The notes: generated from the letters alone by a model not told the origin. Shown: positions 5,671 through 20,504, numbered from the stretch's first letter. The stretch is DNA of 64,000 bases from Candidatus Bathyarchaeota archaeon (GCA_963831895.1 CAWHSD010000016.1:62638-126637); one strand, 5' to 3'. A program made the numbers and translations.

Positions 5671-6915
5671 TTATTTTTCTTTAATGCTTGGCTCGTAAAC
5701 TTTCCAATAGACAAAAATGGATAGAGGAACCGCCGCCACCGCTAAGATAAGAAAGGGAAGCGAAGGAGAAACAAAAGCGTAAAGTAAACCTACAATGATT
5801 TGCAAGACCGCTTGCATTATGAACATAAAAAACTGCATACATCCCATCACAGTTCCTCTTAAACCTCGTGGAACTAAATCACCCATCAAAACTTGGTAGC
5901 TATTTAGTTGAAGCAAATTCCCAAGGCCAAAGAAGAAAAATGCTAGAAGAAGCATGTTGAAATCTGCGTTCAAAAAAAGAAGCATCCCTGGCACATATAA
6001 CAAATAACCCAAAATCAGAAATTTTTTTCGCCCCATAACATCCATACTGAACCCAGCAATTATTCCAGGAACAGCGATGCTTAGATATCTGAAGGCTACA
6101 ACAATTGCCCATTGCCCTATCGAAATTTTAAGAACTGAAGTTGCATAGACCACAAAATAAGTTTGACAACTAACCACCAATCCGTTAATTATGATAATGG
6201 CCAAAAAAAGGTTAAAGGCTGATGTTGGAACTTTGCGCCAAACATTAATTCCTTCTTTTACTGATTTAGGATAGAGACGAAGAACATTGATTAAACTGGG
6301 TTTTTCACTTTTCTCCAATGAGGGCAAGGTTTCCTTCAATCTTAATCTTAAGATAGCAATTGAAAAATACGCTATAGTAACTATAGTGTAACCAATGCGC
6401 ATGCCCAAATCGAAATTAAAAGTTGTAACCAAATATTGTGCTATTAATGGGGCAGGCAATAAAACAAGTGTTGTAATTACTGATTGGAAACTAAAACCTG
6501 AACCGCGGTTTTCAGGCGGTAACGAATCAATAACCATTGACATTAAAGCTGGACCGTAAATAGAACAAAAATTTTGAATAAGTAGTCCAATTAGAATGAA
6601 ATGCCATGAGGGAGCAAAAACGAAGAATAAACTTCCAATAGCTAACCCAAAAGTCATTGAGACTATGAGCCATCTTCTGCCATGTTTATCTGCCAAATAT
6701 CCACCGGGAAACTGGACAAAGGCAACAGCGATGGACCCTGCGAAACCTATGATTGATAGTAGAAAATTGTCGGCGCCTAAATTAAGATAAAAAAGGCTTG
6801 CGAATGTATCTGGAATAGGTTGTGCAGCAAATAAGATAATCCAGCTAACTGTAATGAGCAGAAAGTTGCCTCTTAAAATCGTTGAATCTCCTCGGAAAAG
6901 AATTAAGCGCTTCAT
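5671..6915 (-). CDS. MFS transporter
   Basis: GGYLADKHGRR and MDVMGRKK motif A copies; 12 TM. Confidence 0.9.
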   Translation of the reverse strand: MKRLILFRGDSTILRGNFLLITVSWIILFAAQPIPDTFASLFYLNLGADNFLLSIIGFAGSIAVAFVQFPGGYLADKHGRRWLIVSMTFGLAIGSLFFVFAPSWHFILIGLLIQNFCSIYGPALMSMVIDSLPPENRGSGFSFQSVITTLVLLPAPLIAQYLVTTFNFDLGMRIGYTIVTIAYFSIAILRLRLKETLPSLEKSEKPSLINVLRLYPKSVKEGINVWRKVPTSAFNLFLAIIIINGLVVSCQTYFVVYATSVLKISIGQWAIVVAFRYLSIAVPGIIAGFSMDVMGRKKFLILGYLLYVPGMLLFLNADFNMLLLAFFFFGLGNLLQLNSYQVLMGDLVPRGLRGTVMGCMQFFMFIMQAVLQIIVGLLYAFVSPSLPFLILAVAAVPLSIFVYWKVYEPSIKEK

Positions 6916-7048
6916 TGGTTATGGAAAATCAACTAAGAATTATTTAAATTAAAGTGAAATCGAAAACTTTCCCTTGAAACGAAAATCGGCTATTATATCC
7001 CGCAATTCTTAAATCGCCCTTGTCAGGAGGATAAATAGATTAATAAAA

Positions 7049-8419
7049 ATGCAAAGCAATATCGAAGGAAAAACTAAGCTTAAGGCATTGACGATTTCAA
7101 TTTTTGCAATCTTTAGTGTAGTAATAATTGAGGTTACATTAGGTTTACTTATTAACAGTTTAGCGATAATGAGTGATGGCTTGCATGCACTTTTGGATGG
7201 TGTTTCTAGTGTCATGTTGTTTTTTGCTGTACGTGCTGCATTGAAACCTCCAGATGAAGAGCACACATACGGACACGAAAAGTTCGAGACAATCGGAGGA
7301 TTAATCGGCGGCATAGTGCTAATTTCTGTCGCATTCCTAATATTCTATGAAGCCGCAATGCGCCTTATAAATCCCCCCCAACTTAATCCAGCAATTGAAT
7401 ACGCAGGTTTCATAGCAATAGGCTACGCTCTTTTCATCGCCTCCCTAAGAGTAACCGTTTTCAAAAAGTTTCAACACGTTCAAAGTACATCCATGAAAGC
7501 AGGTTTTTACGATGCTATTTCAGATTTAAGTTCAACTCTGATTGCTCTTTTAGGTTTTGGCTTAGCTATTTTGGGATTTACAGGTGGAGATGCATTTGCA
7601 TCCATTTTCCTTGGAGTTATGCTTACATATTTGAGCATAAAACTTGTAAAGTTTAGCGTGATGGAACTAAGCGACACTGCTTCAAAAGAACTCTTGGAAA
7701 AAACAAGAAAGATCATTATTTCATGCGATGGTGTTGTTAAAACCGAGAACCTAAAAGTTCGAAAAGTAAGCTCAAAAGTTTTCGTTGAAGCATCCGTTCA
7801 AGTTCCAATCATAATGAGTTTGCAGGATGCACATTCTTTAGCAACAAAAATTGAAAGTTGCCTAAAAGATGGCTTCGGAAACGTTGACTCAACCATTCAC
7901 ATTGAACCTTCAGACAAAGAACGCAAAATGGATCAGTTAGTCGAAAAATTAGCTACAGTTGAGGGGGTGAAAGAGGTACATGAAATTTCCACTATATATG
8001 TGGCTGGTAAGCTGTACATTACTTTACATGTGTATGTTAATCCTGAACTATCGGTTGAAGAAGCACATAAAATAGCTGAATCCATTGAACGAGGAATGAA
8101 AACTGAAATTAAGTCGCTTGAAAACGTTACAGTACATGTTGAACCTGCGGGGGTTGCAATTCCTGCCAACGAAGTCAATGAAGTCGAACTAAGAAAAGTC
8201 GTTAATCAAGTTGCTAATGGCATTGCGGGTGACCTTCGCATTAAACGAGTGTTAACTTACGTTGCTGAAGGTAAACGTTACATCAACATAGATTGTTGTT
8301 TCACTAAACAAGTGCAGATTAAGGATGCTCATAAAATAGCATCGCAGGTTGAAAAGGAAACAAAGGAACATTTTACAAATGCGGTAGTTACAGTTCATAT
8401 TGAACCAGAATGCCCCTAA
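7049..8419 (+). CDS. Cation diffusion facilitator transporter with three C-terminal ZT_dimer-like domains
   Basis: SDGLHALLD, PPDEEHTYGHEKFE; three repeats of 'AH.IA..IE...TxHxEP'. Confidence 0.9.
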   Translation: MQSNIEGKTKLKALTISIFAIFSVVIIEVTLGLLINSLAIMSDGLHALLDGVSSVMLFFAVRAALKPPDEEHTYGHEKFETIGGLIGGIVLISVAFLIFYEAAMRLINPPQLNPAIEYAGFIAIGYALFIASLRVTVFKKFQHVQSTSMKAGFYDAISDLSSTLIALLGFGLAILGFTGGDAFASIFLGVMLTYLSIKLVKFSVMELSDTASKELLEKTRKIIISCDGVVKTENLKVRKVSSKVFVEASVQVPIIMSLQDAHSLATKIESCLKDGFGNVDSTIHIEPSDKERKMDQLVEKLATVEGVKEVHEISTIYVAGKLYITLHVYVNPELSVEEAHKIAESIERGMKTEIKSLENVTVHVEPAGVAIPANEVNEVELRKVVNQVANGIAGDLRIKRVLTYVAEGKRYINIDCCFTKQVQIKDAHKIASQVEKETKEHFTNAVVTVHIEPECP

Positions 8420-8589
8420 AAACAAAAAGACCAATGATTGCGAATTAATAAAAGCGGGATTGCTATGGTGTTCATAAATTTTTAATAAGAAATCAATCGA
8501 TTAAAATAGAATTCATACTTACTAATAGAATTACTAATTAAGTTGATCAAAACAAAAAAAATAAAAAAGGATAATGATTTATTTATTGT

Positions 8590-9334
8590 TTATTTTTTGC
8601 GACGGTATGTGATCGTTCCCAATGCTGCCGCGACTACAACTAAAGCTACGCCAATTGCAGCTACACTTGAAAACTCTGGTATTGTTGGTGTTGGTTCAGT
8701 TGATCCTTCTGGGGTAAATACTGCTTGGTAGCTGAACATATTTCCATATCCGTGGTTGACATTGTATGGGTTTTCTGTGGGTGTTGCAGTGTATGGGTAT
8801 CCGCCGTGACTTAGGTTTGGTCCTTCTATAACCCAATGTGAGAATGTCCAACCGCTTGCGGGTGTTGCTGTCAACATAAGATTTTCAGCAGCGGCTAAAG
8901 CGTAAGTTCCTGGCGCTGGACTAACTGTACCTCCTGAAGCATCTACCACAACTACAATGGCTGCAGTTGACATGTCAGCTGGTAATACGCGACCAGGGGC
9001 TGGCAGAACAGGCTGGAAATTCGCTTGCACAGTGTAAGTACTTCCTCCGGAAACTGGGAATGTTAGTGGATTATCTGTGGCAACGTTGGATCCATCAGCA
9101 GTATCAAGAATCCAGTTTACGAAAATGAAGTCAGCATCAGCTGTTGCAGTTAATGTTAAAGATGTCTCCATCAGCATAAGTAGTGGTTCCTGCAGCAGGG
9201 TCAGTAGTTCCTCCAATTGAATCTAGAACAATGACAGTAGCTTGTCCTTGAGCATTAACACTTGCATTTACAACTGCTAAAACTAGCAATGTCAATAGCA
9301 AAGTCAAAACAAAAATTTTTTTAGATTTTATCAT
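8590..9334 (-). CDS. Secreted surface protein with two InlB-B-repeat-like beta repeats and a PEF-CTERM-like anchor; +1 frameshift near 9166
   Basis: Signal peptide in ORF 9137-9334; removing one base gives YADG-TSLTLTATADADF; repeats GGTTDPAAG/GGTVSPAPG ... LTATPASGWTFSHW; C-terminus PEF + TM + RRKK. Confidence 0.8.
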
Positions 9335-9407
9335 TTTATTTTATCTCCAATATAAAGCATGCTTGCTTGTTTCAATTTAACCAAATATTTCTATATTTAA
9401 TTATGTG

Positions 9408-9423
9408 GTTGTGTCTACACAAC
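9408..9423. promoter_or_regulatory. Perfect inverted repeat GTTGTGT-CT-ACACAAC, candidate operator
   Basis: Palindrome in the divergent promoter region between the PEF-CTERM gene and the 9598 operon. Confidence 0.45.
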
Positions 9424-9597
9424 AACAAGCATCTCTGATTTCTTTAAAAGAAAATACTGCTTTATTCATGATTAGAAACCAAGTTAATCGCAAAACTGCT
9501 CGACTTAAAATATTTTTTCAGAAAGCTATTTGAAAGTAAACCTTTATTGCTCAACATTTTCTATTAGATTAGTAAAATTTGGAGTGTTCACGGGAAA

Positions 9598-11826
9598 ATG
9601 CCTTCTCGATCAGCGGTAGTTAAACTTAAAGCAATTTTAATAATTGACTTAATGATTGTAGGCGTAGCCGCAGGAGTTTATTTTTATTTTCAAAATCAAG
9701 GGGTCATAACAGGCGCAGTTAAACCAGCCGCGTTTACTCTAACAGATTTAACCATCAATCCGCTTGAAGCATTCACAGGTGATGCAGTTCAAATTTCAGT
9801 TAATTTAACAAACATCGGCGATTTGGAAGGCAACCAAACGGTAAATCTTGAAATTAATAATGTCATCAAAGACACAACCAATGTTACCCTTGCAGCTAAT
9901 TCAACTGAAGTCGTGGAGTTTACTTATATTGAAACTGTTGAGGGAAATTACACTGTTAAAGTTGGCGATTTAACAGCTTTTTTGATCATTAAACTTGCTC
10001 CTCCAGAATCAAGCAAAATTTTATTGTCTAATCTCATAAGTAATCCGTATGAAGTTTGGGCTAATGAAAACGTCACTATCACTGCAAATGCTGTTAACCC
10101 TTCAGGTCAAATAGACAAGCTAACTGTGAAAATTATGATCGATGATACAGTTGTTGGCACACAAGTTATTACTCTAGAAGCAGGAGCAAATCAAATCGTT
10201 CAATTTACTGTTAACGCATCTTCAGCCGCAGAAGGTAAACACATAGTTAATCTTAACACACTAAAGGGCTCCTTTTTCGTCGTGAAGACAGGTTACCATA
10301 CACTTATTATTAATCGTTCAGGAGGTGGTTCTACTCCTCTTCCGTTTACGTTAAATGGAGAAAATCAAAAGACCGTTTACCAAGCGGTGTTACCAATTGG
10401 AGAATATAGCATTTCTGTTCCGGACCCATTCAGTGTTGGGACAGGAGTGTTGGGATTTACGTATTGGAGCGATGGCGTGAAAACTCCATCAAGAACGTTC
10501 ACATTAAACGAGCGCCTGATATTAGTTGTCACTTACACCTTAATCAGTGGGTATGCATCTTGTCCCTCTCTTTATATATGGAATGGAACTGGATATTCGT
10601 ACGTTACTGACGTTTCAAACCCAGGTTGGCTAGGATATATCAGCCACATTGACTCCGATGGAACAATAGTTTTTGGTGGCGGAAACCCATGGGACTATGT
10701 AAAACTAGATAAAAATCTACTTACAACTAAAAACGGTTATTATGATGTTGCTCTCGCTCAACAATGGGATGAACTCTTCTATCTAGATTCAACCTATATG
10801 TTAGTTGTCGACCACCCTATTGGAACAGATGTTTACACATCGATGACTAACTACCTCAACAAAGGGTCAACAGGTCAAATTTATACTGTAACTAATGGTA
10901 CATTCCTTTCGCCTGTTAACGCCTTCAACGAACAAGGTAAAAATGTTTTATCTCAAATCCTTCAGAAAGATGGAGTATATACCCCAGGCATCAATGGAGA
11001 CCAAAGTTCATCTTGGAGCAATATTACCATGAACCAATTGACTTTAGATTTAGGTAATTTGTCCGCTGCACAGGAGTTAAAGCTTGTAATTACGGGAATG
11101 GTAGATTGGGGTCCAGCAGATCCATATTACGCTTGGGTACAAAGCTTCAAAGATGCGGCAGCTCAAGGACTTGTACAAGACGGAACTGAAATAATGCCTG
11201 CTCCTTTCATGGAAGTTAAAGATTTGAATGGCAACTGGATACGTGTTTCACAAGATAAACAAATTCCAATACCATCAGATTACAATGCTAGAACCTTCAC
11301 AGTAGACTTAACAGGTCTGTTTCCCGCAAATGCAAATGATTATCAAGTTAGATTCACAAATTTCTGGAACGTTACTTACGATTATATTGGAATCGACACA
11401 ACCCAACAACAAAACATAACAATACAGAAACTTGCACCTTCTTCAGCAACCCTTAGTCAAATGTGGGACACTCAATCCAACGCTACAGGAGAATTTACCC
11501 GATACGGGGATGTAACGCCTCTGATGCAAAATGCCGACGATATGTATGTAATAGGTAGACAAGGCGACCAAGTTAATATTCAATTTTCAACCTCTGACCT
11601 CGCACCGGTTGCACAGGGATTAGAACGTGACTACTTCTTTGTCGTAGCCTGCTGGTTTAAAGATCCATTGGGAAATTGGGGTTACGGATTTGATTTCACC
11701 GTAAATCCAATGCCATTTATGAATATGAGCGGATTCCCGTATACAAACTCAGAAAGCTACCCATATGATACAGCACACCTAGCGTATATCCAAGAGTACA
11801 ACACACGAGTAATAACTATGCCATAA
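9598..11826 (+). CDS. Large N-terminally anchored extracellular protein: CARDB/Ig-like repeats plus a C-terminal domain starting SCPSLYIWNG
   Basis: N-terminal TM; 'VNLTNIGDLEGNQTVNL' CARDB-like repeats; TRYGDVTPL, DDMYVI, WFKD and PMPFxxMSGFPY motifs; many N-x-S/T sequons. Confidence 0.75.
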   Translation: MPSRSAVVKLKAILIIDLMIVGVAAGVYFYFQNQGVITGAVKPAAFTLTDLTINPLEAFTGDAVQISVNLTNIGDLEGNQTVNLEINNVIKDTTNVTLAANSTEVVEFTYIETVEGNYTVKVGDLTAFLIIKLAPPESSKILLSNLISNPYEVWANENVTITANAVNPSGQIDKLTVKIMIDDTVVGTQVITLEAGANQIVQFTVNASSAAEGKHIVNLNTLKGSFFVVKTGYHTLIINRSGGGSTPLPFTLNGENQKTVYQAVLPIGEYSISVPDPFSVGTGVLGFTYWSDGVKTPSRTFTLNERLILVVTYTLISGYASCPSLYIWNGTGYSYVTDVSNPGWLGYISHIDSDGTIVFGGGNPWDYVKLDKNLLTTKNGYYDVALAQQWDELFYLDSTYMLVVDHPIGTDVYTSMTNYLNKGSTGQIYTVTNGTFLSPVNAFNEQGKNVLSQILQKDGVYTPGINGDQSSSWSNITMNQLTLDLGNLSAAQELKLVITGMVDWGPADPYYAWVQSFKDAAAQGLVQDGTEIMPAPFMEVKDLNGNWIRVSQDKQIPIPSDYNARTFTVDLTGLFPANANDYQVRFTNFWNVTYDYIGIDTTQQQNITIQKLAPSSATLSQMWDTQSNATGEFTRYGDVTPLMQNADDMYVIGRQGDQVNIQFSTSDLAPVAQGLERDYFFVVACWFKDPLGNWGYGFDFTVNPMPFMNMSGFPYTNSESYPYDTAHLAYIQEYNTRVITMP

Positions 11827-11947
11827 CCCCAAATTTCTTAAGAGTCTGATAAAAAAACCTTTAAAAATTGCTCAAGCAAAAATTGTGTAAGATTTAAATG
11901 GAATAATATTGTTATTTGCTCTATAAACCTTCCACGAGACCTCATGC

Positions 11948-12650
11948 ATGTCGTTAATCCCTGAAATCCCCAATCCATATCTTGGAGCGTTTGCAGGCGG
12001 CTTGCTGTATGGATTTGCAGTTTGCACGGCATCATGTCTTCCTGTTGTTACAAGTTATATTGCAGGGGTCGGCGCTGGTTTCAGAAAGAGGTGTCAAACT
12101 GACGTTGATTTTCAATTCTGGAAGAGTTTTGGCCTATGCGTTGATTGGTGGTCTTATAGGGTTGTTCAGCGGTTTGTTTAGGCTATTTATTTCTGAAGCA
12201 ACCATTGCACCATTTCAAATTTACTCATCGCTTGCATTCGGAATAGTGACAATAGTTATAGGAATTAGCATTTTTCTTAAAGCCAGAAAACCCTGCGACT
12301 GCAAAACCCAAGACACAAAAAACATGGTTACTGCACACAAAATAGGCAGATTCGGTTTTGATGTTGGTGCTTTCTCACTTGGTTTAACCAGAGGATTAAT
12401 CGTGTGTCCACCATTAATTGCACTTTTGATTTATTCATTGCCTTTCGCTAATCCGCTTGGCAGCGTTGGAATAGCTGTGCTATTCGGGTTAGGAACAGCG
12501 CTCTCACCAATTCTATTATTGGGCGGAGTCACAGGATGGCTTTTGAATAAAGCGCCACTTTTTCGGAAATGGATTTCGATAGCAGGTGGATCCGCACTTA
12601 TTGTTCTTGGAATAATCACGATGGTGAGTTCATTAACTCAAATACCTTGA
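11948..12650 (+). CDS. DsbD_2 / TauE-SafE-like membrane protein with Cys motifs; +1 frameshift near 12088
   Basis: CTASC in ORF 11948, FNSGRVLAY and VCPP in ORF 11982; removing one base gives GFRK-GVKLTL. Confidence 0.8.
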
Positions 12651-12660
12651 CGTGTAAAAT

Positions 12661-13668
12661 ATGGCTGGAGAAATAATTGGAGACCTATTGCGGCTAACAG
12701 TGCTCGGGGGATTAGGAGTAGCTGGGGTACTCACCGTTTTAATTTGGAAGAAGAATATGGCCACACGGGTAACTTTTCTGAGGTTTGTTGTCCAAGCCAT
12801 TGCCGTTGCCGCTATATTCTACGTCCTTTCTTATACAATTCCGCCTATAACCGGAGGATTACCATCGATTCAGTTTGTCTATGTGTTAATTATTATTTTA
12901 TCGATGACCATTTTTTTAGGCAGGTTTTTCTGCGGCTGGCTATGCCCCTTCGCATTCATAATGGACTTGGAAAGCCTCCTTAGAAAAGCCTTAAAAATAC
13001 GTCACCGAATCATACCCGACAAACTAAACAAGATCCTCCACCAATCACGATATGTCATATTGATGTTTTTTTTGTTGTTGCCGATAGTTTTGTGGCTTTT
13101 AGATCCCCAGCCGATCATGGTTTCACCTTTAATGGCTCAACTCTTGGCAGGTCATTTCCGCCCTTACAGCATACTACTTGACCCGCTAATTCCTTTTATA
13201 GTGCCTTGGAAAGGACAGGTTATCTTGGGCCAAGTAAACCTGACATATCCTTATGCTCTGGATTTCATCACCTATTTAGGCACAAACATCGGACAGGTCG
13301 TAGCAATTATCTTTGTTGGATTGACGTTGATAGGTTCATTTCTAATTAGGCGTGTCTGGTGCCGTTTCTGCCCGACCGGCGTATCGTTGGGAGTTGTGAA
13401 CAGGTTTAAGGGGTTAAAATGGGCTCCCCTGCTTCACATCGAAAAAGATGAGGAAAAATGCACTAAATGCGGAGTCTGCAAAAGAGTCTGCCCCGTACAA
13501 GTTAACGAAGTGTATGAGCAGAAGGGCGGAAAAATACAGACCTCCCAATGCATGGTCTGCGCACGCTGCGTGGAAATGTGTCCATATGAAGGAACCTTAA
13601 AGGTTAAGATGGGTAACAAGACATTGTTTAAGTCAAGAAACTGGTTGAAACAAACAACGAGTAAGTGA
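12661..13668 (+). CDS. NapH/MauN-like membrane-bound polyferredoxin
   Basis: GRFFCGWLCP and RVWCRFCP motifs plus two CxxCxxCxxxCP; 4-5 TM. Confidence 0.9.
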   Translation: MAGEIIGDLLRLTVLGGLGVAGVLTVLIWKKNMATRVTFLRFVVQAIAVAAIFYVLSYTIPPITGGLPSIQFVYVLIIILSMTIFLGRFFCGWLCPFAFIMDLESLLRKALKIRHRIIPDKLNKILHQSRYVILMFFLLLPIVLWLLDPQPIMVSPLMAQLLAGHFRPYSILLDPLIPFIVPWKGQVILGQVNLTYPYALDFITYLGTNIGQVVAIIFVGLTLIGSFLIRRVWCRFCPTGVSLGVVNRFKGLKWAPLLHIEKDEEKCTKCGVCKRVCPVQVNEVYEQKGGKIQTSQCMVCARCVEMCPYEGTLKVKMGNKTLFKSRNWLKQTTSK

Positions 13669-15008
13669 GGAACATAGAAATGAATGAAACTGTTGGAAAA
13701 AAATACATGCCTGAAGTAACAAGAAAAGAAATCGATGAACTCAAAACCACAATGAAAGCTGCTTCGCAAAAGGTAATGGCTGAAAACATTGAACGCATGA
13801 AAAAAGCTGACCCCAAAAGACCCGAAACTATGAAATATTTTGATGAAATCTCAAACTTGTTTGGCAAACGACAAGAGGAGATTCAGGCTGAGAAAGAAAA
13901 GGGCAAGAAAGTTATCGGTTACATGTGTCTGTTTGCTCCAACAGAGTTAATTTTAGCATCCGGCGCCATTCCAGTCAGGGTAAACTCAGGCTGGTATGAC
14001 ACTTCTAAGTTAGGAGACAGAGTTGTACCCGTTGAGGTTTGCCCAGTCATCCGTTCAACAATCGGTGCAAAAATGATAGAGCTCTCGCCTTTCCTTGAAC
14101 AAAGCGATGCACTTATTAGTGTTCTTACTTGTGACGGCATGACCAAACTCGGCGAAATTTTAAGCGATTACAAAACCATTTGGGGAATGAACGTACCTCG
14201 AATTAAAGATTCAACTCAGTCACTTCGCTTCTGGAATGACGAAATAAAACAGATGAAAACTCGAATCGAACAGTTTACAGGAAATAAGATTACACGTAAA
14301 AATCTAAAAGAAGCCATCGAAATAAGCCACAGAGCAACAAAAGCGTTCCGCCGCTTGCAAGAATTACGAAAAGGGCCACCTGTAATTATGGGCAGAGATG
14401 CAATGTTGGTTAATCAAACGTTTTTATGGGATGATAAAAAGAGGTGGACAGAAAAAACCGAGGCTTTATGCGATGAATTAGACAAAAGAGTACAACGAAA
14501 AGATTGGGTTTGCGCCCCTGACACACCAAGAGTAATGATTACGGGCACACCTATGTTTTGGCCTGACAACTGGAAACTGCCAAGTCTAGTTGAGGAATCA
14601 AATCCGCAAGGCATTATTGTTGCCGATGAACTATGTTCAGGCGAAAGAATCCTAAACGACCCTGTTGGCGTCGATGAATGGTCAATGGATGACATGCTAA
14701 ACGCAATCGGAGAACGGTATTTGATGGCATCTACCTGTCCATGCTTCACTAGTAAAGATGGTAATGAAGATAGAATCAATTGGCTCTTAAATAAAGTTAA
14801 AGAATGGAATGTTCAAGGAGTGATTTACTATGTGGTTCGCGGTTGCATGCTCTACGCTATGGAATACACACGCGTCAAGAAGGCTCTAGACAAAATAAAT
14901 ATCCCAGTCTACTACCTTGACACCGAATATACCCGAGAAGATGTTGGACAAATGAAAACCCGCGTTGAAGCATTTCTTGAAATGTTAACAGCAAGAGTAG
15001 AAATGTAA
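13665..15008 (+). CDS. 2-hydroxyacyl-CoA dehydratase superfamily protein, probable double-cubane-cluster anaerobic reductase
   Basis: KKVIGYMC..PTELILASG, VCPVIRS, TCDG, ELCSG, TCPC, RGCML, TRVEAFLEM; Cys sets in both halves. Confidence 0.8.
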   Translation: MRNIEMNETVGKKYMPEVTRKEIDELKTTMKAASQKVMAENIERMKKADPKRPETMKYFDEISNLFGKRQEEIQAEKEKGKKVIGYMCLFAPTELILASGAIPVRVNSGWYDTSKLGDRVVPVEVCPVIRSTIGAKMIELSPFLEQSDALISVLTCDGMTKLGEILSDYKTIWGMNVPRIKDSTQSLRFWNDEIKQMKTRIEQFTGNKITRKNLKEAIEISHRATKAFRRLQELRKGPPVIMGRDAMLVNQTFLWDDKKRWTEKTEALCDELDKRVQRKDWVCAPDTPRVMITGTPMFWPDNWKLPSLVEESNPQGIIVADELCSGERILNDPVGVDEWSMDDMLNAIGERYLMASTCPCFTSKDGNEDRINWLLNKVKEWNVQGVIYYVVRGCMLYAMEYTRVKKALDKINIPVYYLDTEYTREDVGQMKTRVEAFLEMLTARVEM

Positions 15009-15017
15009 GGTGTACCT

Positions 15018-15803
15018 ATGATAACTATTGGAATAGACCTTGGAACCCAAAGAGTACAAGTAGTTGTCCTAAAAGACGGCAATGTTGCCTCTAGAGCACA
15101 AGCATTATCGGGTTTCGACCCAACCAAAGCCGCTGAACAAGCAATAGACGAAGCACTCAAGAAAGCAAATTTTAAACTTCTAGATGTAGCAAGTTTTGCG
15201 GCTACTGGTTCAGCTGTGGATATGGCTCCTTACGCCGCTAGCACTGTAAGTATGATGAGCGCAGACGCAAAAGCAGGAGTATTTCTATTTCCTAAAGCTC
15301 GCACAATTATCGATGTCGGCGCAGAAGAAGCAAGAGCTGTAAAATGTGACGAGAGGGGCATTATGGTTGATTTTGTCGTCAACGAACGATGCGCCGCGGG
15401 AGCAGGAGCATTCATCGAAGCGATGGCAAGAGCATTAGAAGTGAAATTGGAAGACATGGGTCCGCTGGCACTTAAGGCGGAACGGGCAAGCCCCATTAAT
15501 GCTTCGTGTGTAATTTTTGGGGAATCAGACGTGGTTTCTCTCATACATCGGCAAGAATCCAAACCCGAAATTGCTCGTGCAGTCTACGATGCAATGGCTG
15601 ATCGAATTTCATCTATGGTTCATAGATTAGGATTAAACCCTGACATTATTTTAGTCGGTGGCGTCGCAAAAGATGTAGGTTTTGTTGCGTCTTTGAATCG
15701 AAAACTAGGCGTTACAGTAATGATCCCTGATTACCCCGAATATGCAGGAGCTTTGGGTGCGGCAATTATTGCAGCAACACGTACAAAAGAGGGCCAAAAA
15801 TGA
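15018..15803 (+). CDS. ATP-dependent electron activase subunit (ASKHA; BzdP/BcrD-like)
   Basis: GIDLG, IDVGAEE, NERCAAGAG, NASCVIFGESDVVS. Confidence 0.88.
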   Translation: MITIGIDLGTQRVQVVVLKDGNVASRAQALSGFDPTKAAEQAIDEALKKANFKLLDVASFAATGSAVDMAPYAASTVSMMSADAKAGVFLFPKARTIIDVGAEEARAVKCDERGIMVDFVVNERCAAGAGAFIEAMARALEVKLEDMGPLALKAERASPINASCVIFGESDVVSLIHRQESKPEIARAVYDAMADRISSMVHRLGLNPDIILVGGVAKDVGFVASLNRKLGVTVMIPDYPEYAGALGAAIIAATRTKEGQK

Positions 15804-16711
15804 AAGAAATGGGCGTAACAAAAGAAGCAGAGTTTTGGCGCTGGCAAGAATATCACCGTATCTTGCCAAACAAAAAATGGACAAGTAAAGATCTGATAAC
15901 CGCTGGAGTTGACGTTGGGTCAGTAGGTTCTAAAGCAGCCATCATGATAAACGGCGAAGCATATTCATGGGGAATAACTCGCACAGGATCTAACAGTCCT
16001 GAAAGCGCTACAAAAGCTCTCGAATACGCACTCGAAGGCACAGGAATCAAAGCAAGTGACATAAAATACATTGTAGGTACAGGTTACGGACGAGTCAACG
16101 TACCCATGGCAAATAAAGCAATAACCGAAATTGCCTGCCATGCCAAAGGTGCAAATTTTATTTGGGGACCAAGCGTTCGGACAGTTTTGGATGTTGGTGG
16201 ACAGGACATAAAAGCAATTCGCATAGATGAAACGGGGCGAGTAGTGTCTTTTCTAATGAACGATAAATGCGCTGCTGGGACAGGAAGAGGCATGGAAGTA
16301 TTCGCAGATTTGCTTCAGATTCCAATTGAAGAAATAGGTGACATTTCACTTAAAGTTGAAAAAGAACCTGAGCCGGTGAGCTGCACTTGTGTTGCCTTCG
16401 CTAAAACAGAAGCAATGGGATTACTTCGCAAAGGCTGGTCTAAAGAAAAAGTACTTGCGGCTTACACACGAGCTATGGCGGTTCGAATGGCTAACTTAAT
16501 TAACAGAGTTGGCTTGGAGAAAGAACTTGTTGTTACTGGCGGCCAATCAAAAAACATTGGTATTGTCAGCAGAATAGAAGTTATACTTGGAGTGAAATGT
16601 CTTCCAACCCCAAAATGGCGAGATGAAGGAGCCTTAGATCCAATGGTTGCCGGCGCATTAGGTGCTGCCATTTTTGCCAAATCGCTCTACGAAAAGTCCC
16701 AAAAATCGTAG
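15800..16711 (+). CDS. ATP-dependent electron activase subunit (BzdQ/BcrA-like)
   Basis: EFWRW N-terminal extension, AGVDVGS, TGYGRVNVP, ITEIACHA, DVGGQD, MNDKCAAGTGRGMEV. Confidence 0.88.
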   Translation: MKEMGVTKEAEFWRWQEYHRILPNKKWTSKDLITAGVDVGSVGSKAAIMINGEAYSWGITRTGSNSPESATKALEYALEGTGIKASDIKYIVGTGYGRVNVPMANKAITEIACHAKGANFIWGPSVRTVLDVGGQDIKAIRIDETGRVVSFLMNDKCAAGTGRGMEVFADLLQIPIEEIGDISLKVEKEPEPVSCTCVAFAKTEAMGLLRKGWSKEKVLAAYTRAMAVRMANLINRVGLEKELVVTGGQSKNIGIVSRIEVILGVKCLPTPKWRDEGALDPMVAGALGAAIFAKSLYEKSQKS

Positions 16712-16719
16712 GTGATTAG

Positions 16720-17007
16720 TTGATCACCTATTTTGGTTATTGTGACGGTTCAGGCGAATATTACATCATTATCGATTCAGACAAATGTAGCGGCTGTGGA
16801 AAATGCATTAAAAAATGTCCTCAATCAGCACTTAAACTTGAAACAGAGTTTGTTGACCTCGAAGATAAAACCGTGGCAGCAGTTAAAGAAGAGCATAGAA
16901 AAAAAATAAAGTACACTTGTGCTTCTTGCAATCCAGAAAAAGACAGCACCCCTTGCATTTTAGCTTGTGAAACAAAAGCCGTAAAATGTGTCTGGAACCC
17001 ACATTGA
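16720..17007 (+). CDS. 2[4Fe-4S] ferredoxin (Alvin-type insertion)
   Basis: CSGCGKCIKKCP and CASC-x8-CILAC; GYxDGSGEYYI N-terminus. Confidence 0.85.
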   Translation: MITYFGYCDGSGEYYIIIDSDKCSGCGKCIKKCPQSALKLETEFVDLEDKTVAAVKEEHRKKIKYTCASCNPEKDSTPCILACETKAVKCVWNPH

Positions 17008-17142
17008 ATCAAACAACCTCGAATTATACATCAATTTATTAATTAAAAAAACCCCCATAAATGGAGAAGCAAAAAAAAATTACAGAGAAAATTTTAAAAA
17101 ATATGACACATATGATTGATTTTAAGTATCCAATTTGGAGTT

Positions 17143-17292
17143 GTATTTGTCTGTGATAGAAGAAGAAGTTCTGTTGCTGCACCAAAAGATGTGTAAGTTT
17201 GTTTTGAGTTGCTTTTTTGTGTTTAGGCTTTTGGAAGGCTTCAGGATGCGTCTTTACCCGTCTTGGTACGTCTTGGAAAGTCTCGGAAAGTC
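17143..17292 (+). repeat. Dispersed degenerate non-coding element, copy 1, with 10-bp phased repeats
   Basis: Shares GTATTTGT, AGAAGAA, AGTTGCTTTTT and CTTCAGG(A/T)TGCGTCT blocks in order with 37456-37592. Confidence 0.6.
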
Positions 17293-17302
17293 GGTGTGTT
17301 TA

Positions 17303-17482
17303 ATGCCGTTGTATGAGAAAGTAAACTTTATTGCTAATTTACAGAAGGAAAATCGCTTCCAAGTCCCCAAATATGTGCGTTGGAAATACAAACTCGAATC
17401 TGATCAAACCCTAAAAGTAACCGTCAGCGTCAATTGGATTATGGTCAATCATACATGTGATAGAGAAAGTATAAGAATATGA
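17303..17482 (+). pseudogene. Truncated AbrB/MazE-like DNA-binding protein
   Basis: MPLYEKVNFIANLQKENRFQVPKYVRWKYKLESDQTLKVTV; swapped-hairpin pattern that degenerates after ~45 aa. Confidence 0.5.
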
Positions 17483-17503
17483 CACATGTCATAATGTAGT
17501 ATT

Positions 17504-18316
17504 GTGGGGAAAATAAAAACGAAAAATAAAAACATCGCAATATCTCTATTACTAATACTTATTTTATTTCCATTTTTCATTCCACCATTAGCTTCCGCTT
17601 CATCCAACAATCAATGGAACTTACACATAACAAGCCTAAATGGAACAACAATTAATTTGAGTTATGAAGATCTTTTGGCATTGCCTAAGACCACTGTTAG
17701 TGCAGACCTCTCATGCTATGGCAACCTCGTTTCTAGCGGGGCATGGGGAGGGGTTAGATTATCTGACCTGTTAAATATAGCAGTGATTGACCCATCCGTT
17801 GTAGGCATAGAGTTAACTGCTCAAGACGGATATTTAGTCAGCATACCAATCAACACAGCAATGAGCCCAGACGTTATTGTTGCTTATGACTTAGATGGCT
17901 CACAGCTAAACGAAGTTCTTCGTTTAGTAGTTCCTGATGCAAATGGCAACATTTGGATAGCTGGCATAACTTCAATAGAGATGAGTGCATCTTCGGTTGA
18001 TCAAAGCCAGTCAGGAACTAGTGGACAAAACATAGCAAATCAATACCAAACTATAGTTAATACAACAACACAAGCTCCACCGCAACTACAAACTCCGGTT
18101 GAAATCCAATCAATCGTTCCAAGTAACGAGACAACCAATGAGTCTATTACGCCACCGACGATTGTTACTCTCCCACAATCTGAGCAGAAAATAACAGGAC
18201 AAATGGATTCAATTTCCCCATTTGAGTTCGTTTTGATTTTTCTTGGAGCAGCTGTTTTAGTTGTTGTGGTAGGTTTTGTCTTTTATAGTCGAAAAAGACG
18301 TTATCAGCTAATATAA
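17504..18316 (+). CDS. Exported, C-terminally anchored molybdopterin-binding-domain protein (sulfite oxidase/MsrP-like)
   Basis: Signal peptide; LSYEDLLALP, LSCYG, WGGVRLSDLL, AQDGY, LRLVVP; S/T/Q/P linker; TM + RKRR. Confidence 0.8.
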   Translation: MGKIKTKNKNIAISLLLILILFPFFIPPLASASSNNQWNLHITSLNGTTINLSYEDLLALPKTTVSADLSCYGNLVSSGAWGGVRLSDLLNIAVIDPSVVGIELTAQDGYLVSIPINTAMSPDVIVAYDLDGSQLNEVLRLVVPDANGNIWIAGITSIEMSASSVDQSQSGTSGQNIANQYQTIVNTTTQAPPQLQTPVEIQSIVPSNETTNESITPPTIVTLPQSEQKITGQMDSISPFEFVLIFLGAAVLVVVVGFVFYSRKRRYQLI

Positions 18317-18427
18317 AGTATTGATAATCAATATACTTATACTGTCACTATGATATTACTTCATAATTCGTTAGATTTATTTATTGAAACCGTCAATTGA
18401 CTGTCAGATGGTGTGGAGTAGAAGTAA

Positions 18428-18979
18428 TTGGACAAAAATCCGCAATCAAAAGATGATGCTCTTGAGGCGTTAGACTTTATCGTAAATGTTCTCAAAGAAC
18501 ATGAAAAAGACCTTGACAAACTCATCAATGAGCTTGCAACGGTCACCGAGCAAATTGGCGACACTGGCGAATTAAGCAGTAAAGTTGAAAAAGTTGAAAT
18601 AAAAATCGAAACACTACAAAAAGAAGTAACAAACCTAATTGGACAATTATCTGGTAAATCCCAGGAAGCATCGCCATTAGTGGTTGCTAAACAACAACCA
18701 AATGAAGTAGCTGAAGTTACTATGCCCAGTGGACATTCTGTTATTATGCGCTGCAAACAATGGGAAGATTTTCAAAATTTAGCTATGAAAGCTCAAACGT
18801 TGTCGTTTAGCTATAAGGAAGAAGAAAAGATTTTCCAGGCTGATGCTCTTAAAGGCAACCAGTTTATTACCTATAGAGGTGACCTTCCCAAGCTTTCTTC
18901 TATTTTGAAGATGTGGTTGTCTAAACAGTTTGATGTGCCAGAAGATAATATTTTGGAAGGCATATTAGTTGTAGGCTAA
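18428..18979 (+). CDS. Hypothetical protein with N-terminal coiled coil
   Basis: 183-aa ORF with heptad pattern. Confidence 0.7.
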   Translation: MDKNPQSKDDALEALDFIVNVLKEHEKDLDKLINELATVTEQIGDTGELSSKVEKVEIKIETLQKEVTNLIGQLSGKSQEASPLVVAKQQPNEVAEVTMPSGHSVIMRCKQWEDFQNLAMKAQTLSFSYKEEEKIFQADALKGNQFITYRGDLPKLSSILKMWLSKQFDVPEDNILEGILVVG

Positions 18980-19067
18980 ATCAATATTTTTACTTCTTAT
19001 TTTTGCTTCATAAATCATATATTAATTTTATGTCATCTTGAATCTTGTTAGTGATTGGAGGGAATGG

Positions 19068-19160
19068 TTAAGGTTGAAGGTTAACCAGTATGCCAAGATA
19101 CAATTTCCGTTTTCGAAGCCTTCTCCTTTCTCCTCGATACGGATGGCTATTGGACGCCAA
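19068..19160 (-). CDS. Candidate 30-aa basic small protein
   Basis: GGAGGT RBS at 19169-19174; TTG start; MASNSHPYRGERRRLRKRKLYLGILVNLQP*. Confidence 0.35.
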   Translation of the reverse strand: MASNSHPYRGERRRLRKRKLYLGILVNLQP

Positions 19161-19424
19161 CACACATAACCTCCCTTCATAAACACTAACTAAAATTCCA
19201 AAAAGGAATTCTGACCTCTTTACAATTTGGATTCATGTAAAGGAAACGAATTATCTGATATATCTACAATTTTCCTTAATTAATTCATATTTTTTGAATA
19301 TAAAACGGTTATTGATTACAATGGAAAAAGAATAACGCTATACTGAAAACCTCTGACGCTGGAGTTAGACAAAGTATATAATCACTGGTTAATACCTCTC
19401 CGTTTACGCTGGTGCAAAAAGCCC

Positions 19425-20504
19425 TTGGAATCTGTTAAACCAAAGTTAACTTGGAAGACCGTCGTTTTTCCATTGCTTGGTTTAGCAGGGTTTTTCATCT
19501 ACATTTATTTGTTCCATGTAGATATCTTAGGCATCATAAACACGGCAAAAACCGCTAATCCATTCATTTATGGGTTAGCTATCTTGTTTGGTTTATTGGA
19601 AGTTTTGTTTTTCACAATTTCTTGGCGAGAATTAACTAATTATCTATCGATAAAAATGAGTATTGGCAGAGCTTACCTCTATGTTTGGTATGGTCTATAT
19701 GTTGACACAATTGTTCCAGCTCAATCTATAAGCGGAGAGGTAACCCGAACTTATTTGCTTGTGCGAGATAAATGTGGACCTTTTGGAAAAATCGTGGCTT
19801 CACTCTTTGCTCACAGGCTTTTGGGGATGGCAATAAACGTGATTGCCTTAATCGTTGGTATCATATTGCTTTATTTTGGCGGCCAAGCATCACCTTTAGT
19901 TTTCAATTTAATAATAATTGTTGCAATAGCCATAACAGCCGTTATCTTTTTAATGGTAATATTTTCTTACAAGCAACAGTGGACACTAAAAGCAATTACG
20001 TGGGGTACCAAACTTGGACAAAGAATTACACTTGGAAGATGGAAATCAGAAAAAATAAAAAACCAAGCAATAGAAATTACAGAGCACTTTCATAACGCAA
20101 TAAAAGAATTTCGACATAACCCAAAATCAATTGTTACCTCACTGTTTTACTTAGCCATAACATGGATTTTTAGTCTAAGCGTCCCTTACTTGATATTCTT
20201 ATCTCTTAATCACCCTGTTTCATGGAGCATGATTCTCATAACTTCATCTATAGTTTTAGCTGTAAAAGCAATTCCAGTGGGAATTCCCTTTGAAGTTGGA
20301 CTTCCTGAAGCTGTGATGACGACACTTTACTTTTCGATGGGTGTTCCCGCCGCACTGGCAGCCACAGCCACAGTTCTTGTAAGAATCATAACATTGTGGA
20401 TGCGCTTTTTTATCGGCTTTGTTGCCCAACAATATCTCGAATTAAAACCCTCCATTTCAGTAACTGAAAACGCAGAAAAAACTAAAATCTACCTTCAACC
20501 CTAA
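19425..20504 (+). CDS. Lysylphosphatidylglycerol synthase TM / flippase-like (UPF0104) protein
   Basis: IVPAQSISGEVTR, PVGIPFEVGLPE, RIITLW; ~8 TM. Confidence 0.85.
   Translation: MESVKPKLTWKTVVFPLLGLAGFFIYIYLFHVDILGIINTAKTANPFIYGLAILFGLLEVLFFTISWRELTNYLSIKMSIGRAYLYVWYGLYVDTIVPAQSISGEVTRTYLLVRDKCGPFGKIVASLFAHRLLGMAINVIALIVGIILLYFGGQASPLVFNLIIIVAIAITAVIFLMVIFSYKQQWTLKAITWGTKLGQRITLGRWKSEKIKNQAIEITEHFHNAIKEFRHNPKSIVTSLFYLAITWIFSLSVPYLIFLSLNHPVSWSMILITSSIVLAVKAIPVGIPFEVGLPEAVMTTLYFSMGVPAALAATATVLVRIITLWMRFFIGFVAQQYLELKPSISVTENAEKTKIYLQP

What the first reader, a model, noticed from the sequence alone, without database searches (positions are those of the whole stretch)
9598..17007. Candidate undescribed system: membrane-wired, ATP-driven low-potential reductase (double-cubane-type enzyme + BzdPQ-like activase) linked to a surface protein
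Seen: seven co-oriented genes; the last six are separated by 0-10 nt or overlap. In order: CARDB-like surface protein, DsbD_2/TauE-like Cys membrane protein, NapH/MauN-like polyferredoxin, HAD-superfamily Fe-S protein, two ASKHA activases, ferredoxin. Established: class I benzoyl-CoA reductases pair a heterodimeric activase (BcrAD/BzdPQ) with a heterodimeric reductase (BcrBC/BzdNO), whereas the characterised double-cubane protein uses a single-gene activator and reduces small molecules such as acetylene and azide. Inference: this locus is a chimera in which a Bzd-type activase and ferredoxin drive a single-chain double-cubane-like enzyme. The membrane module would exchange electrons or thiol/sulfur equivalents with an extracellular partner. 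Substrate unknown; aromatic (e.g. lignin-derived) or N/S compounds are plausible for sediment archaea.
Basis: partly seen in the sequence, partly recalled or inferred. Interest (0 to 1): 0.9.

Follow-up and report, generated by a model that had tools for sequence, protein, structure and literature searches.

The report
Membrane-docked double-cubane reductase operon
A soil archaeon (Bathyarchaeia) carries a tightly packed operon for an ATP-powered, very-low-potential iron-sulfur "double-cubane" reductase whose natural job is unknown, and here, as in distant archaea and bacteria, it is joined to two membrane redox proteins, which gives that enzyme class a testable cellular setting and shows these genes are not a benzoate-ring reductase.

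Summary
Seven co-oriented genes lie at 9598-17007, and the last six are 0-10 nt apart or overlap. One correction: the DsbD_2 gene really starts at ATG 11948 and is broken in this assembly by one extra base near 12089. Close relatives lack that base.

- Gene 13665-15008 is a double-cubane cluster protein (DCCP), not BzdN/O or HgdA/B. All six cluster cysteines are invariant. The seventh motif cysteine is Asn.
- It is followed by two different archerase ATPases (31% identical, both with the two bridging-cluster cysteines) and a 2x[4Fe-4S] ferredoxin.
- This core is found in 74 of 74 related Bathyarchaeia loci.
- A NapH-like polyferredoxin and/or a CcdA-like membrane protein sits directly upstream in 68 of 70 loci.
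- The NapH-like→DCCP pair recurs in four distant lineages (42-44% identity) and once as a single fused protein. The CcdA-like gene recurs in two of them.
- A fold of the pair gave weak support.
- The surface protein is a frequent neighbour (53/70) but has no redox motif.

Best reading: a membrane-docked, ATP-driven DCCP system acting on a small non-CoA substrate at the membrane. Substrate and electron direction are open. I found no paper describing the membrane link. This scan met the same module before on other DNA.

The parts
9598..11826 (+). g1: surface protein. It has an N-terminal membrane anchor, CARDB repeats and a ~430-aa C-terminal beta-sandwich region of unknown family. It is a conserved neighbour; membership of the system is uncertain.
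   Evidence: CARDB E=3e-8. One N-terminal TM segment and only 2 Cys. C-terminal model pLDDT 76 with no clear PDB match, TM <=0.21. Present upstream in 53/70 relatives and never without g3. In 4 independent contrasts it is lost together with g3 (p=0.125). Two genes separate it from g2 in L006.
11948..12650 (+). g2: CcdA/DsbD_2-like six-helix membrane protein with invariant TM1 C-x3-C-L-P and TM4 C-P-P motifs. In this assembly one extra base near 12089 breaks it into ORF pieces 11948-12181 and 11982-12650.
   Evidence: PF13386 69 bits, PF02683 32 bits. N-terminus in another frame. One base is left out at 12089 in related contigs of two studies. C26, C30 and C153 are invariant in 25 sequences, including a bacterial and a distant archaeal partner. 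The best fold match of an orthologue model is CcdA 5VKV (prob 0.99, TM 0.45, E 0.037; model pLDDT 67).
12661..13668 (+). g3: NapH-like membrane polyferredoxin. It has five predicted TM helices, C-x3-C-P and C-x2-C-P motifs, and a C-terminal 2x[4Fe-4S] domain. By the positive-inside pattern (inference) all of these face the cytoplasm. Its stop overlaps the start of g4.
   Evidence: Fer4_5 x2 plus Fer4. TIGR02163 88 bits against a cut-off of 213. All 12 Cys are invariant in 35 sequences including distant ones and the fusion protein. TM scan. Upstream of DCCP in 61/70 relatives and in L091, L095, L108 and L109. Fused to DCCP in P0199. Complex fold ipSAE 0.59 against best control 0.00, rated weak support.
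13665..15008 (+). g4: double-cubane cluster protein (DCCP) type reductase, the single HGD-D chain carrying both Cys triads. An alternative ATG start lies at 13680.
   Evidence: NF040772 342.3 bits (cut-off 350) against BzdN 100 and HadC 104. PDB 7YYL/6ENO 277 bits against BzdN 95. C88, C126, C156, C324, C358 and C394 are invariant. Position 107, the seventh motif Cys, is Asn in 34 and Ser in 2 of 36 Bathyarchaeia sequences.
15018..15803 (+). g5: archerase (BcrAD/HgdC-family ATPase) subunit. It is the more divergent of the two.
   Evidence: PF01869 158 bits; TIGR00241 195 bits. Closest solved: HadI 170 bits, MbdQ 153, DCCP-R 114. C125 and C164 align with the cluster ligands C127 and C166 of HgdC through g6.
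15800..16711 (+). g6: archerase subunit, BzdQ-like. It overlaps g5 by 4 nt.
   Evidence: TIGR03192 BzdQ 361 bits (cut-off 380). Closest solved: MbdQ 201 bits. C157 and C197 align with HgdC C127 and C166. 31% identical to g5. These two are the only PF01869 genes in the genome.
16720..17007 (+). g7: small 2x[4Fe-4S] ferredoxin, the presumed electron donor to the archerase.
   Evidence: Fer4 families. Motifs C-x2-C-x2-C-x3-C-P and C-x2-C-x8-C-x3-C. Follows g6 in 74/74 relatives and in L107 at 47% DCCP identity.

Best explanation
The locus encodes a membrane-docked double-cubane reductase system.

Shown by sequence:
- g4 is a DCCP-type protein with all six ligands for an [8Fe-9S] cluster.
- g5 and g6 are two different archerase subunits, each with the two cysteines for a shared bridging [4Fe-4S] cluster.
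- g7 is a small di-cluster ferredoxin.
- g3 is a NapH-like five-helix polyferredoxin.
- g2 is a CcdA-like membrane protein with three invariant membrane cysteines.

Inferred from the characterised families: ferredoxin reduces the g5/g6 heterodimer, and ATP hydrolysis drives that electron onto the double cubane of g4 at a potential far below ferredoxin.

Inferred from comparative genomics, one fusion and a weak fold result: g4 sits on the cytoplasmic Fe-S domain of g3, beside g2, so the low-potential chemistry takes place at the inner face of the membrane.

Most likely use (inference, the weakest step): reductive processing of a small, non-CoA, probably inorganic or metal(loid)-bearing substrate that is captured outside the cell and handled by the membrane proteins. 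I call this 'reductive acquisition'. The TonB-receptor versions in bacteria are the parallel.

Still open: whether the substrate is reduced at the double cubane itself, or by electrons passed on through g3 and g2.

It is not a benzoyl-CoA reductase.
For: Identity of the core:
- Family and PDB scores put g4 with DCCP.
- The six ligand Cys are invariant in 20 diverse and 39 related sequences.
- The alignment to DCCP of C. hydrogenoformans begins at its residue 36. It therefore covers most of the N-terminal extension that occludes the CoA channel there (PMC7317905).
- The archerase Cys are mapped onto HgdC.
- The core g4-g5-g6-g7 is found in 74/74 loci and again at 47% identity in L107.

Membrane link:
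- g2 and/or g3 lies directly upstream in 68/70 loci.
- The g3 stop overlaps the g4 start.
- NapH-like directly precedes DCCP in L091, L095, L108 and L109, at 42-44% DCCP identity.
- P0199 is one 677-aa NapH-like::DCCP protein.
- DsbD_2 with the same invariant motifs occurs in L095 and L109.
- All 12 Cys of g3 are invariant across these lineages.
- The fold of g4 with g3 scored ipSAE 0.59 against a best control of 0.00, rated 'weak support'. That mark was reached by 58 of 80 solved complexes and 2 of 110 mismatched pairs, but scores of 0.60 or under by only 7 of those 80. Partner pLDDT was at least 63 and the runs agreed in at least 90% of contacts.

Uptake flavour:
- L095 reads TonB receptor, DUF4198, NapH-like, DCCP, DsbD_2, TonB_C.
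- A cation-diffusion transporter lies upstream here and in 34/62 relatives.
- DCCP persists where g3 has left the locus, at least 5 changes on the tree. So DCCP is not merely a relay for g3.
Against: - No substrate, cofactor or complex has been measured.
- g4 scores just under the NF040772 cut-off and lacks the seventh motif cysteine.
- g3 is absent from 9/70 loci and g2 from 18/70, and two loci have neither. The membrane proteins are therefore dispensable, or encoded elsewhere.
- The known relatives of both membrane proteins (NapH/NosR, CcdA/DsbD) are reductant conduits, not importers.
- The fusion protein rests on a single 5-kb contig of one run.
- The complex fold is only 'weak support'.
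- g2 is frameshifted in this very genome.
- Synteny among the 80 Bathyarchaeia is partly inherited rather than independent.
Confidence: 0.55

Rival explanations
1. Electron-export machine. ATP-energised electrons leave the double cubane through the NapH-like protein, and thiol equivalents leave through the CcdA-like protein. They reduce or activate a partner outside the cell, such as the surface protein or the secreted molybdopterin protein.
For: The best-known relatives of both membrane proteins carry reducing power outward (NapH/NosR-type; CcdA is the best fold match). In BzdN the double cubane is a relay and store rather than the active site (PMC11971306). Extracytoplasmic proteins lie next to the module here (g1, g9) and directly upstream in L095, L109 and L091.
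Against: No conserved outside redox partner was found. g1 has 2 Cys and no cofactor motif, and g9 is present in only 14/80 loci. g3 has no evident cofactor site in its outer loop. Spending ATP to reach very low potential and then passing through a thiol relay makes little energetic sense (inference). The core persists where g3 is gone.
Confidence: 0.2
2. Electron-input tether. The NapH-like protein is a membrane-bound ferredoxin that feeds the archerase/DCCP from a membrane electron source. The reaction itself is cytoplasmic, on a soluble small molecule.
For: Distant versions (L091, L095, L108, L109) have NapH-like but no separate ferredoxin gene in the cluster. The Fe-S domain of g3 is predicted to be cytoplasmic.
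Against: The Bathyarchaeia operon always carries its own soluble ferredoxin (74/74). No MqnA/D homologue for menaquinone synthesis was found in the 90%-complete genome. Quinol to ferredoxin-level clusters is uphill (established thermodynamics). This reading does not explain the CcdA-like partner.
Confidence: 0.15
3. Incomplete or atypical class I benzoyl-CoA reductase (or a 2-hydroxyacyl-CoA dehydratase) used for aromatic or amino-acid degradation, as such clusters are usually annotated in Bathyarchaeia.
For: g6 nearly reaches the BzdQ cut-off. Database names call g4 'BcrC/BadD/HgdB'. A 'BcrACD' cluster without BcrB is reported for Bathyarchaeum tardum (PMC10477458).
Against: g4 scores 342 bits on the DCCP model against 100 on BzdN and 65 on BcrC. 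It carries both Cys triads on one chain. No BzdO/BcrB/HgdA-type gene exists in the genome. The N-terminal extension that blocks the CoA channel in DCCP is aligned. In B. tardum, benzoate inhibited growth.
Confidence: 0.04

Closest known systems
DCCP / DCCP-R of Carboxydothermus hydrogenoformans (PDB 6ENO, 7YYL; Jeoung & Dobbek; PMC7317905, PMC9351452)
   Same: Single HGD-D chain with the six [8Fe-9S] ligands and the N-terminal extension, paired with an HgdC-family ATPase. The physiological substrate is unknown. Sequence match 277 bits.
   Different: Two different ATPase genes instead of one homodimeric DCCP-R, and both are closer to HadI/MbdQ than to DCCP-R. A dedicated ferredoxin. The seventh motif Cys is replaced by Asn. 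NapH-like and CcdA-like membrane partners. The DCCP papers read here never mention a membrane.
Class I benzoyl-CoA reductase, Bzd type (BzdNOPQ plus ferredoxin; PDB 8S02, 9GAI; PMC11971306)
   Same: A heterodimeric archerase with a ferredoxin gene beside it. BzdN also holds an [8Fe-9S] cluster. g6 is close to BzdQ.
   Different: There is no second catalytic-side subunit (BzdO-like, with the aqua-[4Fe-4S] active site). g4 scores only 95-100 bits against BzdN. g5 is not P-like. BCR has no membrane partners.
NapH / MauN / NosR / CcoG family of membrane polyferredoxins
   Same: Two Cys-x-x(x)-Cys-Pro motifs next to TM helices and a C-terminal 2x[4Fe-4S] domain.
   Different: Far below the NapH model cut-off (88 against 213 bits). 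No NapG, NapAB or Nos genes nearby. The partner is a cytoplasmic ATP-driven reductase, once fused to it.
CcdA / DsbD transmembrane thiol-disulfide transporters (PDB 5VKV)
   Same: Six-helix fold. One Cys followed by Pro in TM1 and another in TM4.
   Different: An extra invariant Cys in TM1 (C-x3-C). No thioredoxin-like partner in the operon. Only 23% identity and TM-score 0.45 on a model of pLDDT 67.
DCCPs linked to SelD and the SAO locus (Haft preprint 10.1101/2022.07.06.499078)
   Same: DCCP genes correlate with selenium genes and with transporters for thiophilic metals. The second DCCP of this genome lies next to SelD and a DsrE-like gene.
   Different: The operon studied here has no Sao genes. 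Its membrane partners are from other families (NapH-like and DsbD_2, not ArsP-like or ABC).

Membership tests
Double-cubane cluster protein (DCCP; NCBIfam NF040772; 'cluster IV' of PMC7317905) | Six Cys on one HGD-D chain that bind the [8Fe-9S] cluster | tested here: met
   C88, C126, C156, C324, C358 and C394 are invariant in A1 and A3, with spacings x29, x167 and x33 as in the published motif (motif).
Double-cubane cluster protein (DCCP; NCBIfam NF040772; 'cluster IV' of PMC7317905) | Seventh, non-ligand Cys of the 7-Cys motif (Cys94 of DCCP-Ch) | tested here: not met
   Asn107 here. Among 36 Bathyarchaeia sequences it is N in 34 and S in 2. It is Cys in the distant homologues P0125, P0133 and P0199 and in the genome's second DCCP.
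Double-cubane cluster protein (DCCP; NCBIfam NF040772; 'cluster IV' of PMC7317905) | Score at or above the curated cut-off of the family model | tested here: not met
   342.3 bits against a cut-off of 350. It is by far the best model (next best 104 bits). The paralogue on contig 8 scores 494.
Double-cubane cluster protein (DCCP; NCBIfam NF040772; 'cluster IV' of PMC7317905) | Adjacent HgdC-family ATP-dependent reductase | tested here: met
   Two such genes follow directly. This holds in 74/74 relatives.
Double-cubane cluster protein (DCCP; NCBIfam NF040772; 'cluster IV' of PMC7317905) | [quoted passage not shown] | not testable with these tools
   Needs anaerobic protein work, spectroscopy or a structure.
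Class I benzoyl-CoA reductase, Bzd type | Two different HGD-D subunits (BzdN and BzdO) | tested here: not met
   There is one HGD-D gene in the operon. The only other one in the 89.9%-complete genome is a canonical DCCP beside SelD.
Class I benzoyl-CoA reductase, Bzd type | BzdQ and BzdP ATPase subunits | tested here: inconclusive
   g6 scores 361 bits on TIGR03192 against a cut-off of 380. g5 scores only 130 on BzdQ and 147 on BcrD. Against solved MbdP, both score lower than against MbdQ or HadI.
NapH quinol dehydrogenase subunit | Family model score, and NapG/NapAB partners | tested here: not met
   TIGR02163 88 bits against 213; NF007013 85 against 234. No nap genes appear among the neighbours scanned. 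The motif architecture alone is shared.
CcdA/DsbD transmembrane reductant transporter | DsbD-type TM domain with one Cys in TM1 and one in TM4 | tested here: met
   PF13386 69 bits, PF02683 32 bits. C30 (with C26) and C153 are invariant. The best fold match is CcdA 5VKV, modest.
CcdA/DsbD transmembrane reductant transporter | Thioredoxin-like donor and acceptor proteins | not tested
   None lies in the operon. The rest of the genome was not searched for them.

The most novel reading that the evidence does not exclude
Archaea and bacteria share a so far undescribed 'reductive acquisition' machine. An extracytoplasmic capture protein (a surface protein here; a TonB receptor and periplasmic binder in bacteria) hands a tightly bound or oxidised metal(loid) species to a CcdA-like/NapH-like membrane pair. 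That pair is powered by an ATP-driven double-cubane reductase at potentials no ordinary ferredoxin reaches. This would be the first physiological role for DCCP enzymes.
Probability: 0.3. Interest if true: 0.85.

Novelty: new variant of a known kind. Interest (0 to 1): 0.68.

Why it matters
DCCPs are a structurally well-studied, nitrogenase-like enzyme class with no known physiological function (PMC7317905, PMC9351452, PMC11971306). A conserved membrane partner, seen as an overlapping gene pair in several lineages and once as a fusion, says where to look for the substrate. It also gives defined proteins for pull-downs and assays.

For Bathyarchaeia, among the most abundant archaea of soils and sediments, it removes a common argument for anaerobic aromatic-ring reduction. 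The 'BcrACD' genes reported there are this DCCP system (PMC10477458, PMC12694404). The operon is strongly conserved (DCCP 76-96% identical across 80 species-level genomes), so it is probably important to these organisms.

Tried and rejected
- **Distant-relative locus scan.** The search for related loci with a diverse DCCP alignment failed because no stretch was conserved enough. The single protein was used instead and reaches only close relatives.
- **More fusions.** A word-based search for longer proteins holding the g3 domain found no further NapH-like::DCCP fusion. Its sensitivity is limited, so P0199 remains the only one seen.
- **Activases in distant loci.** A search for activase genes in the genomes of L095 and L091 could not be done because the records are not held.
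- **Riboswitches.** Rfam gave no riboswitch or other RNA family in window 6000-20000, or in L091, L093, L095, L098, L107-L109 (one tRNA only). The vitamin-B12 regulation reported by earlier notes of this scan for bacterial relatives was therefore not reproduced on my loci.
- **Expression.** No RNA holder is listed among the public runs. Only soil DNA contigs could be laid, and run X1 laid nothing on the stretch.
- **g1 C-terminal region.** Pfam found nothing. The Atlas returned only unnamed clusters, with UnbV_ASPIC on 25% of one weak cluster. Foldseek against PDB gave no match above TM 0.21.
- **Upstream protein of L109.** The 464-aa protein upstream of the NapH-like gene in L109 is not a detectable homologue of g1.
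- **Literature.** Searches for the DsbD_2 family and for Bathyarchaeota bcrC gave nothing useful. The first literature search was too broad. The 2018 DCCP paper is not held.
- **Quinones.** No MqnA/D homologue was found. In a 90%-complete genome this is weak evidence only.

Full report
**What is there.** The window is part of a 2.56-Mb, 89.9%-complete archaeal genome. The closest relatives of the genes studied are all labelled Bathyarchaeia/Bathyarchaeota. Between 9598 and 17007 there are seven genes on the + strand. Genes 2 to 7 are separated by 10 nt, a 4-nt overlap, 9 nt, a 4-nt overlap and 8 nt. Gene 1 ends 121 nt before gene 2. Pfam and NCBIfam give:
- g1: CARDB
- g2: DsbD_2
- g3: a Fer4_5-type membrane polyferredoxin; NapH/MauN model 88 bits against a cut-off of 213
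- g4: HGD-D
- g5, g6: two BcrAD_BadFG ATPases
- g7: a small 2x[4Fe-4S] ferredoxin

A cation-diffusion transporter lies upstream (7049-8419). A secreted, C-terminally anchored molybdopterin-domain protein lies downstream (17504-18316).

**A correction to the gene model.** The g2 ORF that opens at 11982 has an N-terminus unlike its orthologues. The ATG at 11948, in another frame, encodes the conserved N-terminus with the TM1 motif C-x3-C-L-P. The frames meet near 12089. Contigs from two soil metagenomes of different studies, 95-99% alike, lack one base at 12089. So g2 is intact in close relatives. In this assembly it is either an error or a strain-specific lesion.

**The reductase.**
- g4 scores 342.3 bits on NCBIfam NF040772 (double-cubane-cluster anaerobic reductase, cut-off 350). 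It scores 104 on HadC, 100 on BzdN and 65 on BcrC.
- Against solved structures it scores 277 bits on DCCP of C. hydrogenoformans (6ENO/7YYL) and 95 on BzdN.
- The six cluster ligands (C88, C126, C156, C324, C358, C394) are invariant in 20 diverse DCCP-like proteins and in 39 relatives. Their spacings fit the published motif.
- The seventh, non-ligand cysteine of that motif is Asn107. It is N or S in all 36 Bathyarchaeia sequences and Cys in the distant homologues.
- The alignment to DCCP starts at its residue 36. That covers most of the N-terminal extension which, in the solved enzyme, closes the CoA channel and leaves only narrow channels.
- The genome has one other HGD-D gene (contig 8). It is 34% identical and a canonical DCCP (494 bits), and it sits between a DsrE/TusD-like gene and SelD. 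There is therefore no BzdO-, BcrB- or HgdA-type partner.

**The activase and ferredoxin.**
- g5 and g6 are 31% identical.
- g6 nearly reaches the BzdQ model (361 against 380). g5 matches only the general activase model.
- Among solved proteins both are nearest to HadI and MbdQ. Both are further from MbdP and from the DCCP reductase DCCP-R.
- g6 C157/C197 and g5 C125/C164 align with C127/C166 of HgdC, the ligands of the bridging cluster.
- These are the only two such genes in the genome, so they may also serve the second DCCP (inference).
- g7 has one classical motif and one with an 8-residue insert. From my own knowledge this is the pattern of Alvin-type low-potential ferredoxins.

**Conservation in Bathyarchaeia.** A scan of one genome per species found 173 genomes with a close relative. 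The best 80 (76-96% identity) were fetched with 10-kb flanks, and I searched them with the window's proteins.
- g5, g6 and g7 follow g4 in 74 of 74 loci with enough sequence.
- Of 70 loci with at least 4.5 kb upstream: 37 have g1+g2+g3, 16 have g1+g3, 8 have g2+g3, 7 have g2 only and 2 have none.
- At least one membrane partner therefore directly precedes g4 in 68 of 70.
- Of the 7 g2-only loci counted, L071 and L074 have a convergent NapH-like gene right after g7; L060, counted as g1+g3, has one too.
- On a DCCP tree, g3 changes state at least 5 times, g2 at least 4 and g1 at least 11. In the 4 independent contrasts for g3, g1 goes the same way each time (p=0.125, too few pairs to be significant).

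**Conservation beyond Bathyarchaeia.** A profile-free search of 1.84 billion cluster representatives shows that the nearest full-length relatives outside this clade are at most 47% identical. I looked at the neighbourhoods of nine of them.
- NapH-like directly precedes DCCP, often with overlapping stop and start, in four:
  - L091 (43%), amid beta-propeller proteins
  - L095 (44%), a bacterium: TonB receptor, DUF4198, NapH-like, DCCP, DsbD_2, TonB_C
  - L108 (43%)
  - L109 (42%), an archaeal context: TM protein, NapH-like, DCCP, activase, DsbD_2
- P0199 (31%) is a single 677-aa protein with the NapH-like part in front of the DCCP part. One activase and a second HGD-D gene follow it.
- L107 (47%) repeats DCCP, two activases and a ferredoxin.
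- P0124, P0129 and P0134 show no NapH-like gene on mostly short contigs.
- All 12 cysteines of g3 are invariant in 35 sequences including the distant ones and the fusion.
- The DsbD_2 partners share invariant C-x3-C-L-P and C-P-P motifs.
- A model of a g2 orthologue (pLDDT 67) matches CcdA best (5VKV, prob 0.99, TM 0.45, E 0.037).
- A fold of g4 with g3, each with its alignment, scored ipSAE 0.59 against 0.00 for the best of three controls. The tool rates this 'weak support'.

**The surface protein.** g1 has an N-terminal anchor, CARDB repeats and a 430-aa C-terminal region. That region folds into beta-sandwiches (pLDDT 76) with no clear solved relative. It has no Pfam family and only two cysteines. 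It is a frequent neighbour and seems to travel with g3. However, it has its own upstream AT-rich region. In one relative it is separated from g2 by two genes, one of them a TrmB-type regulator. I treat it as a possible capture or binding protein, not as a redox partner.

**How it most likely works.**
- Established for the families: ferredoxin reduces the archerase, and ATP hydrolysis pushes the electron onto the acceptor cluster at very low potential (PMC7317905, PMC9351452, PMC11971306).
- Inferred here: the acceptor, g4, is held at the membrane on the cytoplasmic Fe-S domain of g3, next to g2.
- The use I think most likely is reductive processing of a small, non-CoA, thiophilic or metal(loid) substrate obtained from outside. 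Three things point that way:
  - the bacterial version is embedded in TonB-dependent uptake genes;
  - metal transporters recur beside DCCP genes;
  - DCCP outlives the loss of g3.
- The site of reduction and the direction of electron flow through g3 and g2 remain open.

**Comparison and novelty.** It works like DCCP/DCCP-R and belongs to that family by its ligands and scores. It fails two formal marks: the seventh Cys, and 8 bits under the model cut-off. It borrows the two-gene activase plus ferredoxin layout of class I benzoyl-CoA reductases without their second catalytic subunit.

The DCCP papers I could read describe a soluble two-component system and never mention a membrane. Haft's preprint links DCCPs to SelD and to a transporter locus of other families. 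Papers on Bathyarchaeia read such genes as benzoyl-CoA reductase.

Earlier notes of this scan describe the same operon in other Bathyarchaeia and the TonB-linked form in bacteria. My results agree with them but were obtained independently of them.

I rate it a new variant of a known kind.

Noticed in passing
G000 contig 8, locus L005:3534-11459 (outside the window): The genome's second DCCP (canonical, NF040772 494 bits) lies between a DsrE/TusD-like gene and SelD (NF010705 335 bits, cut-off 291). An ABC_cobalt permease, two molybdopterin-domain proteins, MobB and MobA follow. There is no activase nearby. This fits the DCCP-SelD correlation of Haft's preprint.
   Followed up: partly
window 12085-12092: A single extra base (about 12089) frameshifts the DsbD_2 gene in this assembly. 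Related soil contigs from two studies lack it.
   Followed up: yes
window 17504-18316: A secreted, C-terminally anchored protein with only the Oxidored_molyb domain lies downstream of the operon. Similar genes lie beside the second DCCP on contig 8, and within 10 kb in 14 of 80 related loci. A possible molybdopterin link was not pursued.
   Followed up: partly
proteins P0146 and P0201: DCCP-like proteins occur fused to an FHA domain (P0146) and to a PucR-type helix-turn-helix (P0201). This hints at signalling or regulatory uses of the fold.
   Followed up: no
L093:2997-6655 and L094: In another lineage (DCCP 43% identical) an 806-aa GxGYxYP/CBM9 protein overlaps the DCCP start by 4 nt and one activase follows. 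Again a large, probably extracytoplasmic protein is coupled to a DCCP.
   Followed up: no
L057 (record titled Methanocella sp. MAG113): A contig assigned to Methanocella carries the complete Bathyarchaeia-type operon at 83% DCCP identity. It is probably a binning error in that record.
   Followed up: no
window 7049-8419: A cation-diffusion-facilitator gene (Cation_efflux plus ZT_dimer) lies upstream of the operon here and in 34 of 62 related loci. This may be inherited synteny or a functional link to metal handling.
   Followed up: partly
G000 contigs 3, 5 and 8 (L099-L101): The genome has three further Fer4_5 (NapH-like) membrane polyferredoxins of 285-549 aa. Their neighbourhoods were not examined.
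   Followed up: no
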